Below are positions 41,290-42,716 of a DNA stretch of 64,000 bases, one piece after another (positions within the stretch are counted from its first letter, which is position 1; every line of letters begins with the position of its first letter). The translations under genes were made by a program, and so were the position numbers. A model generated the notes under the pieces. The model ran no database searches. It had not been told where the DNA came from and was given only the letters and a program-made list of their open reading frames with translations. This stretch comes from a virus: IMG/VR virus record IMGVR_UViG_3300031237_000002, positions 1,423 to 65,422 of that record; one strand, written 5' to 3'.

Positions 41290-41320
41290 TACTGGCAAGC
41301 GCCAGTATTTGTTGTATCAT
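41290..41320 (+). promoter_or_regulatory. Hairpin plus -10-like box immediately upstream of the array
   Basis: TACTGGC-AAGC-GCCAGTA-TTT stem; TGTTGTATCAT (41310-41320) is identical to the -10 context at 46896-46906. Confidence 0.45.
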
Positions 41321-41328
41321 TGTAATAC

Positions 41329-41441
41329 AGCCAGCCAATTCAAGAAACCCAATGAGGCAAAGCGAGCCATCCTGCACAAGAAACCCAGTTTTAAGAAGCG
41401 AGTCACTAAAGAAAAGTAACCCACCCCCTTTAAGCGAGCCA
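41329..41441 (+). ncRNA. TIGR-type dual-repeat guide RNA array, upstream part (3 units of 36 nt)
   Basis: Units start at 41329, 41365, 41401: AGYCA-9nt-AG(A/T)AACCCA-9nt-AGCG; a further AGCCA at 41437. Confidence 0.9.
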
Positions 41442-41446
41442 CCGCC

Positions 41447-42394
41447 ATGACAAATAAAATTGACATTAAAAAGCTTGTAGAAAAACATCAGAAACGCCTT
41501 TGCGCTTTGTCTGGTGAAACCCTCCCTGATGATTACAGCCTTGTAGATACCCATCGCAAGCAGCACAAGGCGCAAGGTGGCACCTACACGGAAGAGAACA
41601 CCATTGTCGCAACGCCGCGTGCGCACATGGCCGAACATGGAACATTGCGCGACCGGGAAGACTGGCTGGAGCAACTTAAATCCTTGATGGATGATCGCTC
41701 CCAAGTCATGAAACTTATTTTTAAAATCAACAACCAGCTTCTGGCTGGCGAACGCCGCACTGACCATCTTTCGGAAGACACCGAAGCCATGCTTAATGAA
41801 GCGCTGGTGTTGCCAGAGAAACGTCTTACCCGTATCGACAGTGCAATCACCAAGCACCTTAAGGCGCCAGACCGTAGCGTTCTGGTTGATTCCTTGATGG
41901 GCGTGCGTGGCGTCGGTCCTGTTACAGCGGCTGGCCTGCTGGTGTACATCGACCTTGAAAAAGCAGACAGCCCGTCAGCTTTGTGGAAGTATTGCGGCCT
42001 GCATTGTGCCTCACACCAGCGGTATGAGAAAGGCGTAGCAGGCGGCGGTAATAAAACTCTGCGCACCATCCTGTATAAATGGGCATTGTGCATGGAGAAA
42101 GACGTTAAGAATCCTTACCGTGTTGTTTACGAACAGGATAAAGCGCGTCGGGAAGTATCCGATAAGTTGGTGAAATCCTACAACACACAAGGAAAGCTGG
42201 TGGAAGTGGCATGGAAAGATACCAAGCCTTCCCACCGTCGTGGTGCTGCTATCCGCGTAGCAGAGAAACATTTCCTTGCTGACTTCTGGATGGTAGGCCG
42301 CGAGCTGTTGGGTCTGCCAACGCGTACCCTGTATGTAGAACAAATTTTAAATCACGACGGCATTATTAAACCTGCCGAACGCGGTTGGATTTAG
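41447..42394 (+). CDS. tasH: TasH-like protein: N-terminal HNH nuclease plus Nop/IS110-C-terminal-like RNA-binding domain
   Basis: HNH-like DTH36...GGTYTEEN51...H60MAEH64; coiled coil; GVRGVGPVTAAGLL, SALWKYCGL, GGGNKTLRTILY, H...AIRVAEKHFLADFW. No DEDD RuvC domain. Flanked by arrays. Confidence 0.85.
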   Translation: MTNKIDIKKLVEKHQKRLCALSGETLPDDYSLVDTHRKQHKAQGGTYTEENTIVATPRAHMAEHGTLRDREDWLEQLKSLMDDRSQVMKLIFKINNQLLAGERRTDHLSEDTEAMLNEALVLPEKRLTRIDSAITKHLKAPDRSVLVDSLMGVRGVGPVTAAGLLVYIDLEKADSPSALWKYCGLHCASHQRYEKGVAGGGNKTLRTILYKWALCMEKDVKNPYRVVYEQDKARREVSDKLVKSYNTQGKLVEVAWKDTKPSHRRGAAIRVAEKHFLADFWMVGRELLGLPTRTLYVEQILNHDGIIKPAERGWI

Positions 42395-42716
42395 CCATAA
42401 TCGCTGAGTAAACCATAAACAGTAAGCGAGTCATTGTTCATAAGAAACCCACTCAGAACAAGCGAGTCATTATTCATAAGAAACCCATTGCGGACAAGCG
42501 AGCCAAGATATTAAAGAAACCCATGATTAACTAGCGAGTCATCATACCGAAGCAACCCATAATGGCGAAGCGAGCCAACCCATCATAGAAACTCATTTCG
42601 TGAAAGCGAGCCATTGAAGAGAAGAAACCCAAGTCCATTAAGCGAGCCATTTCGTATAAGAAACCCAACTCCATTAAGCGAGCCACCTTCCATGAGAAAC
42701 CCAACAAGGACTAGCG
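42393..42716 (+). ncRNA. TIGR-type dual-repeat guide RNA array, downstream part (9 units of 36 nt)
   Basis: Exact 36-nt period from 42393 to 42681; alternating AGCGAGYCA and AGAAACCCA repeats with 9-nt variable spacers. Confidence 0.95.

What the first reader, a model, noticed from the sequence alone, without database searches (positions are those of the whole stretch)
41290..42397. Effector gene sits inside its own array, with a promoter positioned at the first unit
Seen: three units precede the gene, a fourth edge repeat (41433-41441) ends 5 nt before the ATG, and the stop codon TAG overlaps the AGCCA that starts the nine downstream units. TGTTGTATCAT (41310-41320), identical to the -10 context of the TTGACA promoter at 46879-46906, would put transcription start at about 41327, 2 nt before the first AGCCA; a 7-bp hairpin insulates it from the upstream gene. 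Inference: one precursor carries guides and mRNA. Cutting at AGCG/AGCCA would leave the tas mRNA with a 10-nt leader and no clear Shine-Dalgarno, a possible negative autoregulation by array processing.
Basis: partly seen in the sequence, partly recalled or inferred. Interest (0 to 1): 0.68.

Follow-up and report, generated by a model that had tools for sequence, protein, structure and literature searches.

The report
Phage guide-RNA nuclease gene inside its array
A phage gene for a small RNA-guided nuclease (TasH) sits in the middle of its own guide-RNA array, a layout already published and found here in about 40% of relatives, so the finding is mostly ordinary apart from some unusually tight, untested gene/array junctions.

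Summary
Three 36-nt TIGR units (41329-41436) lie upstream. A full edge repeat ends 5 nt before the ATG at 41447. The tasH gene runs 41447-42394. Nine more units (42393-42716) start inside its TAG stop codon.

The protein is a full-length homolog of the characterised SpTasH of Salicola phage CGphi29. It keeps the HNH histidines and the Tyr/His pair that cuts pre-tigRNA, and the edge repeat is identical.

The layout itself is not new. Faure 2025 and Xu 2026 describe arrays upstream, downstream or on both sides of tas. I found both-sided arrays in 26 of 63 TasH clusters.

- **One precursor:** likely, because no terminator or promoter-like site separates the units, tasH and the DNA polymerase gene. 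It is unproven.
- **Promoter at the first unit:** possible. It is at chance level within the window, but such elements are enriched at this position in homologs. Stronger promoter-like sites lie 2.3 kb upstream.
- **Autoregulation by leader trimming:** not supported. There is no Shine-Dalgarno to lose, and 31 of 46 homolog clusters keep theirs downstream of the last cut.

A detail I did not find in the two TIGR papers whose text I searched: in 26 of 60 clusters the first downstream cut falls inside the stop codon.

The parts
38954..39048 (+). Two sigma-70-like promoter matches (TTGACA-16-TACTAT, TTGACA-16-TATTAT) in the strand-switch region at the head of the + strand replication block. They could drive the whole block, including the TIGR-tasH locus, by read-through.
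   Evidence: 10 of 12 and 11 of 12; sequence. Over the whole window, matches of at least 10 of 12 are not enriched (9 against 8.95 in shuffles), so only their position speaks for them.
41288..41309 (+). Hairpin after the upstream 75-aa ORF (stop at 41282), followed by a T-rich tail. It looks like a terminator of moderate strength.
41292..41320 (+). Candidate promoter CTGGCA-17-TATCAT. The -10 ends 8 nt before the first half-edge, and the -35 lies in the hairpin stem.
   Evidence: 9 of 12, chance level; the 11-mer is not significant; promoter-like elements are enriched at this position in homologous loci
41329..41436 (+). Upstream TIGR subarray of three 36-nt units. It starts with a 5'-truncated edge (AGCCA).
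   Evidence: unit table; periodicity
41432..41441 (+). Last, complete edge repeat AAGCGAGCCA. The predicted TasH cut is between 41436 and 41437.
   Evidence: The cut position is inferred from SpTasH mature tigRNAs that begin AGCCA/AGUCA and end AAGCG (Faure 2025 supplement).
41437..41446 (+). 10-nt leader AGCCACCGCC that would remain on tasH mRNA after the cut. It has no Shine-Dalgarno.
   Evidence: It is the second shortest of 46 clusters.
41447..42394 (+). tasH, 315 aa: an HNH nuclease domain plus a Nop-type RNA-binding domain. H60/H64 match SpTasH H54/H58. Y296/H303 match the processing pair Y289/H296.
   Evidence: residue roles
42392..42397 (+). Stop codon TAG overlapping the first half-edge AGCCA of the downstream subarray. 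The predicted 5' end of the first downstream tigRNA lies between U and AG of the stop codon.
   Evidence: The same overlap occurs in 26 of 60 TasH clusters.
42393..42716 (+). Downstream TIGR subarray of nine 36-nt units. It ends with a 3'-truncated edge (TAGCG).
42718..44712 (+). Family-A DNA polymerase gene. Its ATG lies 1 nt after the last half-edge, and its AAGGA Shine-Dalgarno lies in spacer B of the last unit.
   Evidence: syntenic L055 has the same abutment

Best explanation
This is a dual-repeat TIGR-TasH system, an RNA-guided DNA nuclease with 36-nt two-spacer guides. It is built into the replication-gene operon of a roughly 55-kb phage.

The tasH reading frame interrupts one co-oriented array: 3 units before it and 9 after it, with no room for transcription signals at either junction. 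The most likely working is as follows.
1. A single + strand transcript carries the 3 units, tasH, the 9 units and the DNA polymerase gene. It starts at the weak candidate promoter at 41292-41320, at the stronger sites near 39.0 kb by read-through of the 41288 hairpin, or at both.
2. TasH is translated from this transcript through an unstructured, A-rich start region without a Shine-Dalgarno.
3. TasH then binds each unit and cuts at AAGCG|AG[CT]CA with its Tyr296/His303 loop, releasing 12 tigRNAs.

Shown here: the anatomy, the homology, the conserved catalytic residues and the frequency of the layout in relatives.

Inferred: co-transcription, the cut positions, and any effect of cutting on translation of tasH or the polymerase gene.
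For: - **Unit anatomy:** exact 36-nt register on the + strand.
- **Protein homology:** P0001 matches solved SpTasH chains at E = 7e-111 over residues 9-314.
- **Catalytic residues:** H60, H64, Y296 and H303 are invariant in 22 homologs. They correspond to SpTasH H54/H58 and Y289/H296, which carry out metal-independent self-processing.
- **Cut site:** the edge repeat AAGCGAGCCA is identical to that of CGphi29. SpTasH tigRNAs run AGCCA...AAGCG and are 36 nt long.
- **No transcription signals inside:** no + strand terminator-like site between 41310 and 44869, and no promoter-like site inside tasH.
- **Operon context:** neighbours are replication genes on the same strand.
- **Synteny:** relative L055 also has array, tasH, array, then the polymerase ATG 7 nt after the last half-edge.
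- **Frequency:** both-sided arrays occur in 26 of 63 clusters, and the first unit starts inside the stop codon in 26 of 60.
- **Literature:** arrays upstream, downstream or on both sides of tas are described.
Against: - No expression data exist for this phage, so the start site, read-through and cleavage are all untested.
- The hairpin and T-run at 41288 could stop upstream transcription, leaving only a 9-of-12 promoter.
[quoted passage not shown] Cutting at the 5'-truncated first edge, inside the stop codon, and at the 3'-truncated last edge is therefore uncertain.
- Sigma-70-type scans are at chance level across this window, and the host is unknown.
- An internal promoter of a type the scan does not cover cannot be excluded.
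Confidence: 0.7

Rival explanations
1. A dedicated promoter at 41292-41320 starts the precursor 2 nt before the first unit. TasH cutting at the last upstream edge shortens the tasH leader to 10 nt and thereby lowers TasH translation, giving negative autoregulation.
For: - The -10-like TATCAT ends 8 nt before the first half-edge.
- Promoter-like elements are enriched at this position in homologs. Examples are L060 with TTGACA-17-TATAGT 12 nt before AGCCA, and L073, L006 and L038 with TATAAT 10-19 nt before.
- The last upstream edge is complete, so it should be cut.
- UUAAG(C)GAG in that edge resembles a Shine-Dalgarno with one bulged base. A cut would split it. This is read from the sequence and is weak.
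Against: - The promoter scores 9 of 12 with a poor -35 inside a hairpin stem, which is chance level. The shared 11-mer is not significant.
- There is no clear Shine-Dalgarno before or after the cut.
- The start region is unstructured in both forms, with z-scores of +0.5 (150-nt uncut), -1.1 (90-nt uncut) and +0.9 (cut).
- In 31 of 46 clusters the Shine-Dalgarno lies downstream of the last cut, so the family is not built to lose it.
- The nearest syntenic relatives, L004 and L055, have 19-nt leaders with AGGTG or AGGTA.
Confidence: 0.12
2. Feedback through the 3' end. TasH cuts at the first downstream half-edge, between U and AG of the UAG stop codon. Processed tasH mRNA then lacks a stop codon. 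Ribosomes stall, and the product is tagged by tmRNA and degraded. TasH level would thereby limit its own synthesis. The same logic at the last unit would detach the polymerase Shine-Dalgarno from its AUG.
For: - The predicted cut lies inside the stop codon in the window and in 26 of 60 clusters (offset 1 in 20, offset 2 in 6). Different stop codons (TAA, TAG, TGA) and half-edges (AGCCA, AATCA, AACCA, AGTCA) are involved.
- The state is scattered over the TasH tree. It needs 20 changes, at least 15 of them forced by well-supported branches.
- SpTasH tigRNA1 is listed as starting at the 5'-truncated edge AGUCA.
- Xu 2026 suggests that tigRNA maturation and Tas translation may be linked.
Against: - Cutting at a truncated edge is not shown. 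Faure 2025 ties processing of minimal arrays to full edge repeats.
- The overlap may reflect only genome compaction, or recombination at edge-like sequences.
- Half of the clusters place the array 3-53 nt after the stop, including the characterised CGphi29 locus (30 nt).
- No data on tagging or mRNA ends exist.
Confidence: 0.2
3. The layout has no regulatory meaning. Arrays grow, shrink and recombine at their repeats, and phage genomes are compact, so tasH ends up flanked by units at minimal distance. Processing simply releases guides, and TasH is made from the share of transcripts translated before cutting.
For: - All three layouts occur at similar frequencies: both sides 26, downstream only 26, upstream only 11.
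- On the tree, the in-stop state changes about as often as shuffled labels do (20 against 21.2).
- Near-duplicate spacers within the window array point to local duplication.
- Leader lengths vary from 9 to 137 nt.
Against: Offsets of exactly 1-2 nt make up 43% of downstream arrays, far above any uniform expectation, so some force favours that junction. It could be selection or a recombination mechanism. Abutment of the array to the polymerase gene is kept in L055 despite about 54% TasH identity.
Confidence: 0.4
4. Separate transcription units. The downstream nine units are made from a promoter inside the 3' part of tasH, and the upstream three from their own promoter, so the mRNA and the guides are not one molecule.
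For: Xu 2026 notes that promoters embedded in tas cannot be excluded from sequence alone. The host and its promoter type are unknown.
Against: No + strand promoter-like site of at least 9 of 12 lies within 41447-42394. The stop codon overlaps the first unit, and there is no terminator between tasH and the units.
Confidence: 0.1

Closest known systems
SpTIGR-TasH of Salicola phage CGphi29 (Faure et al. 2025, PMC12045711; Zhou et al. 2026, PMC13421893; PDB 9W03 and related entries)
   Same: Same protein architecture, at about 56% amino-acid identity over the full length. Same edge repeat AAGCGAGCCA, 8+8-nt spacers and 36-nt unit. The loop repeat is nearly the same (AAGAAACCCA against AAGACAACCA). 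The HNH histidines and the Tyr/His processing pair are conserved.
   Different: CGphi29 differs in four ways.
- Its array lies downstream only, starting 30 nt after the stop behind a small hairpin.
- A rho-independent terminator follows the array.
- Its own TTGACA-17-TATAGT promoter lies upstream.
- A roughly 130-nt structured leader carries a GGGAG Shine-Dalgarno.

The window has units on both sides, a 10-nt leader without Shine-Dalgarno, a stop codon overlapped by the first unit, and a polymerase gene in place of the terminator.
Dual-repeat TIGR arrays flanking both sides of tas (TIGRFinder survey, Xu et al. 2026 preprint, 10.64898/2026.09.09.750476)
   Same: That survey states that arrays can lie upstream, downstream or on both sides of tas, and that intragenic units may link tigRNA maturation to Tas translation. 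The window is one such locus.
   Different: My word searches of the two papers' main texts found no mention of a stop-codon overlap or of a next gene abutting the array. Figures and most supplements were not read, and the other TIGR papers were not searched for this.
TnpB processing its own mRNA into omega RNA (Nety et al. 2023, cited as ref 37 in PMC13421893)
   Same: By its title, an RNA-guided nuclease that cuts its own mRNA to make its guide. This is the closest precedent for an effector whose guide maturation consumes its own message.
   Different: From my own knowledge, the omega RNA overlaps a substantial part of the 3' end of the tnpB reading frame. Here only two bases of the stop codon overlap, the protein family is unrelated (Nop/HNH, not RuvC), and many guides are made from one transcript.
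Self-processing CRISPR effectors Cas12a and Cas13 (Fonfara 2016 and East-Seletsky 2016, cited in PMC13421893)
   Same: A single effector matures its own guide array using a site separate from the target-cleavage site.
   Different: CRISPR arrays normally lie to one side of the cas genes, with their own leader and promoter. Guides there have one spacer, not two.

Membership tests
TIGR-TasH (dual-repeat TIGR-Tas) | Tas protein with a C-terminal Nop-type RNA-binding domain and an N-terminal HNH nuclease domain | tested here: met
   phmmer to solved TasH chains gives E = 7e-111 over residues 9-314. Pfam PF02371 matches at 149-216. H60/H64 align with SpTasH H54/H58, the residues mutated to inactivate HNH.
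TIGR-TasH (dual-repeat TIGR-Tas) | Tyr/His pair on the C-terminal loop that cuts pre-tigRNA (SpTasH Y289/H296) | tested here: met
   Y296 and H303, seven residues apart as in SpTasH, are invariant in 22 homologs.
TIGR-TasH (dual-repeat TIGR-Tas) | [quoted passage not shown] | tested here: met
   12 units in exact register, 5+8+10+8+5 nt; TRF period 36
TIGR-TasH (dual-repeat TIGR-Tas) | Box C (CCA) at the 3' end of both repeats and box D (AG) at their 5' side | tested here: met
   AG and a terminal YCA are present in all edges and loops. The exceptions to CCA are TCA in the AGTCA edge variants and in the loop of downstream unit 6 (TAGAAACTCA).
TIGR-TasH (dual-repeat TIGR-Tas) | Array begins with a 5'-truncated edge and ends with a 3'-truncated edge | tested here: met
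   It starts with AGCCA at 41329 and ends with TAGCG at 42712-42716. The downstream part restarts with AGCCA at 42393. The rule is stated.
TIGR-TasH (dual-repeat TIGR-Tas) | Rho-independent terminator after the array (described as typical, not obligatory) | tested here: not met
   The polymerase ATG follows after 1 nt, and the next + strand terminator-like site is at 44870. Several homologs also lack the terminator.
TIGR-TasH (dual-repeat TIGR-Tas) | Transcript processed into 36-nt tigRNAs that guide DNA cleavage | not testable with these tools
   Needs small-RNA-seq and cleavage assays. Inferred from SpTasH.
Effector that consumes its own mRNA to make its guide (TnpB/omega RNA type) | Guide sequence overlaps the effector reading frame, so that maturation truncates the mRNA | tested here: inconclusive
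   Only the last two bases of the stop codon overlap the first unit. Whether a truncated edge is cut is unknown.

The most novel reading that the evidence does not exclude
TasH trims its own operon transcript at three functional junctions. It leaves tasH with a 10-nt leader. It removes the tasH stop codon, so the cut message gives only stalled, tmRNA-tagged product. It also separates the DNA polymerase start codon from its ribosome-binding site. Guide maturation would then set both TasH dosage and replication-gene output. The stop-codon overlap, seen in 43% of TasH clusters with a downstream array (26 of 60), would be the conserved signature of this feedback.
Probability: 0.15. Interest if true: 0.65.

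Novelty: new member of a known kind. Interest (0 to 1): 0.38.

Why it matters
TIGR-Tas systems are newly described (2025) and are being developed as compact genome editors. How they are expressed in nature is open: Xu 2026 says sequence alone cannot tell whether tas and the guides share a transcript.

This locus is a very compact natural case, and with the survey of 77 clusters it gives concrete predictions that can be tested.
- Guides, tasH and a replication gene lie on one RNA.
- A TasH cut site lies inside the stop codon in nearly half of the clusters that have a downstream array (26 of 60).
- Promoters are often placed just before the first upstream unit.

If the junction cuts occur, they would be a simple dosage control built into the guide array, and worth knowing when designing expression cassettes. 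If they do not, the locus is one more ordinary TIGR-TasH system.

Tried and rejected
- **Nearest homolog unreachable:** The nearest homolog P0002 (78% identity, 44-kb contig) could not be examined, and neither could other Logan-only contigs.
- **Single-protein locus search:** a search of viral contigs with P0001 alone found nothing. An alignment query was needed.
- **Shared 11-mer as a phage promoter motif:** only 2 copies, chance level.
- **Sigma-70 scans:** at chance level in the 7-kb region and in the whole window.
- **Structural switch around the tasH start:** none. Cut and uncut forms are equally unstructured.
- **Translational coupling through a uORF:** the 32-codon uORF (41352-41450, its TGA overlapping the tasH ATG) is present only in the window among 46 clusters, so it is probably accidental.
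- **DNA-level self-regulation by a self-targeting guide:** no match of any of the 12 guides (spacer A plus reverse complement of spacer B, gap 0-2) in the window at up to 2 mismatches, apart from the array itself.
- **Rfam:** no family matches 39000-45000, nor the CGphi29-clade leaders.
- **Minus-strand ORFs across the locus:** no Pfam hits.
- **Strict hairpin finder for terminators before first units:** it missed imperfect stems. I replaced it with a T-run plus folding-energy test.
- **Exact cut site:** not available from the NAR paper's supplement. It was found in the Faure 2025 supplement.
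Full report
**What is there.** The window is 64 kb of a 66.7-kb IMG/VR virus record. On the + strand at 41329-42716 lies a perfectly phased series of 36-nt units.
- Each unit reads half-edge AG[CT]CA, 8-nt spacer A, 10-nt loop (consensus AAGAAACCCA), 8-nt spacer B, half-edge AAGCG.
- Three units occupy 41329-41436.
- A further AGCCA completes a full edge repeat at 41432-41441. CCGCC and the ATG at 41447 follow.
- The 315-aa reading frame ends with TAG at 42392-42394. 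Its last two bases are the first two of AGCCA (42393-42397).
- That AGCCA opens nine more units, which end in a 3'-truncated edge TAGCG at 42712-42716.
- One base later, at 42718, a family-A DNA polymerase gene starts. Its AAGGA ribosome-binding site lies in spacer B of the last unit.

**What it is.** The protein is a TasH.
- It matches the solved chains of SpTasH from Salicola phage CGphi29 at E = 7e-111 over residues 9-314.
- It carries the IS110-type Nop region (PF02371).
- In an alignment of 22 homologs, H60/H64 and Y296/H303 are invariant. These correspond to SpTasH H54/H58, the HNH residues mutated to inactivate the nuclease, and to Y289/H296, the pair that cuts pre-tigRNA without metal ions.
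- The edge repeat AAGCGAGCCA is identical to that of CGphi29.
- The Faure 2025 supplement lists SpTasH tigRNAs as 36-mers that start AGCCA or AGUCA and end AAGCG.

No Rfam family covers the region. The minus-strand ORFs across it have no family matches.

**Is the layout unusual?** No.
- Faure 2025 says TIGR units lie "upstream and/or downstream" of tas.
- The TIGRFinder preprint says arrays can flank both sides, and that guide maturation and Tas translation may be linked.
- I collected 125 loci encoding TasH relatives from viral and metagenome contigs. I grouped them into 77 clusters at 85% protein identity and called units with a position-specific rule.
- Among 63 clusters with at least 250 nt on both sides, 26 have units on both sides, 26 downstream only and 11 upstream only.

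**One precursor?** The anatomy favours it.
- All units are co-oriented with tasH.
- The scan finds no + strand terminator-like site between 41310 and 44869, and no promoter-like site inside tasH.
- The junctions leave no room for transcription signals.
- The neighbours are replication genes on the same strand: nucleotidyltransferase, polymerase, resolvase, exonuclease, Gam-like.
- The syntenic relative L055 has the same order of units, tasH and units, with the polymerase ATG 7 nt after the last half-edge.
- In several other loci the next gene, not a terminator, follows the array.

This is still inference. Xu 2026 states that sequence alone cannot settle co-transcription.

**The promoter.** Within the window the case is weak.
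- CTGGCA-17-TATCAT scores 9 of 12, with the -35 inside the hairpin stem. Eight such sites occur in 7 kb against 8.4 expected.
- The 11-mer shared with 46896-46906 is not significant.
- The 46879 site has its -10 on the ATG of the next ORF.
- Better matches (TTGACA-16-TACTAT and TTGACA-16-TATTAT) lie at 38954 and 39021, in the strand-switch region heading the + block. Even matches of at least 10 of 12 are not enriched window-wide.

- A -10 of at least 5 of 6 lies 5-30 nt before the first upstream unit in 12 of 41 clusters, against 11% of control positions (p about 0.001).
- A full promoter lies there in 6 of 41 clusters, against 2.8% of controls. The window itself is counted in both observed tallies. 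Excluding it leaves 11 of 40 and 5 of 40.
- Examples are L060 (TTGACA-17-TATAGT, 12 nt before AGCCA) and L073, L006 and L038 (TATAAT 10-19 nt before).
- In other clusters a T-run sits directly before the first half-edge (10 of 41 against 6% of controls). In 4 of 41 it follows a stable fold, which leaves little room for a promoter.

I put the local promoter at about even odds. It is not exclusive of read-through from 39.0 kb.

**Autoregulation by leader trimming.** This part is not supported.
- The 10-nt leader is the second shortest of 46 clusters; L007 has 9 nt and L062 has 14 nt.
- The uncut RNA has no clear Shine-Dalgarno either. The start region is unstructured whether cut or not.
- In 31 of 46 clusters a Shine-Dalgarno lies downstream of the last predicted cut, so it would survive processing.
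- The nearest syntenic relatives have 19-nt leaders with AGGTG or AGGTA.
- A 32-codon uORF ending in ATGA at the tasH start is unique to the window.
- None of the 12 guides matches the window itself at up to 2 mismatches.

**What stands out instead.** In 26 of 60 clusters with a downstream array, the predicted 5' end of the first tigRNA lies inside the tas stop codon. The offset is 1 nt in 20 clusters and 2 nt in 6.
- Various stop codons and half-edges are involved.
- On a TasH tree the state needs 20 changes for 26 tips, at least 15 of them forced by well-supported branches. This is about what shuffled labels give. It is therefore not one inherited accident but a junction that keeps recurring, or keeps being lost.
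- If TasH cuts there, the tasH message would lose its stop codon.
- Whether a 5'-truncated edge is cut is unknown. Faure 2025 ties processing of minimal arrays to full edge repeats, yet lists SpTasH tigRNA1 as starting at the truncated edge.
- Compaction, or recombination at edge-like sequences, explains the overlap equally well.

**Verdict.** This is a genuine and correctly described locus of a known kind, in a layout that is already published and common.
- The single-transcript reading is likely.
- The local promoter is possible.
- The proposed autoregulation is unsupported.
- The tight junctions give a modest, testable lead: a stop codon inside the first unit, and the polymerase start 1 nt after the last.

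Noticed in passing
L001:2224-2356, L003:2853-2985, L005:408-540, L053:335-467, L054:151-283: In the CGphi29 clade a conserved, structured leader of about 130 nt lies between the promoter (or the upstream units) and the tasH ATG. RNAalifold gives 39 pairs, 11 of them with compensatory changes in only 5 sequences. An outer helix pairs the 5' GGCUGUAGC with the GGAGUAGCAGCC just before the AUG, which would hide the Shine-Dalgarno. An A-run pairs with the U-run. There is no Rfam match. It is absent from the window. It may be a cis-regulatory RNA for tasH translation.
   Followed up: partly
window 42681-42720; L055:1800-1845: The polymerase ATG lies 1 nt after the last half-edge, and its AAGGA lies in spacer B of the last unit. 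Syntenic L055 has the polymerase ATG 7 nt after its last half-edge. I did not test that.
   Followed up: partly
window 41352-41450: A 32-codon ORF runs through the upstream units in frame and ends with a TGA that overlaps the tasH ATG (ATGA). It has no Shine-Dalgarno and no counterpart in 45 other clusters, so it is probably accidental.
   Followed up: yes
window 42434-42441 vs 42470-42477; 42632-42639 vs 42668-42675: Neighbouring units carry near-duplicate spacers: spacer A TTGTTCAT and TTATTCAT, and spacer B AGTCCATT and ACTCCATT. This suggests that units duplicate locally and then diverge.
   Followed up: no
L004:2853-2888 and L055:152-187; L004:4168-4203 and L055:1620-1655; L004:4312-4347 and L055:1800-1835: Two related phage contigs share whole spacer pairs (GCTGCAAC/AACTTGCC, TTAACTTG/AGTTACCC, CCGAATAA/TTAACCGA), while the other units differ. 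Some guides are therefore kept across lineages. None is shared with the window.
   Followed up: no
window about 3734-8200 vs about 58994-63480: ORF start contexts recur about 55.26 kb apart with small differences (for example at 3734 and 58994, 4911 and 60171, 7755 and 63027). The record therefore holds more than one genome length, with non-identical ends.
   Followed up: no
window 14771-14895: A period-39 direct repeat gives the highest autocorrelation score outside the TIGR array. It lies within overlapping long ORFs on both strands (13914-14939 + and 13992-14948 -).
   Followed up: no
L009:2660-2693, L025:2790-2824, L032:2815-2847, L033:2580-2611: In several loci a T-run, in some after a stable hairpin, sits directly against the first upstream half-edge with no room for a sigma-70 promoter. 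Those arrays may depend on terminator read-through or on another promoter type.
   Followed up: partly
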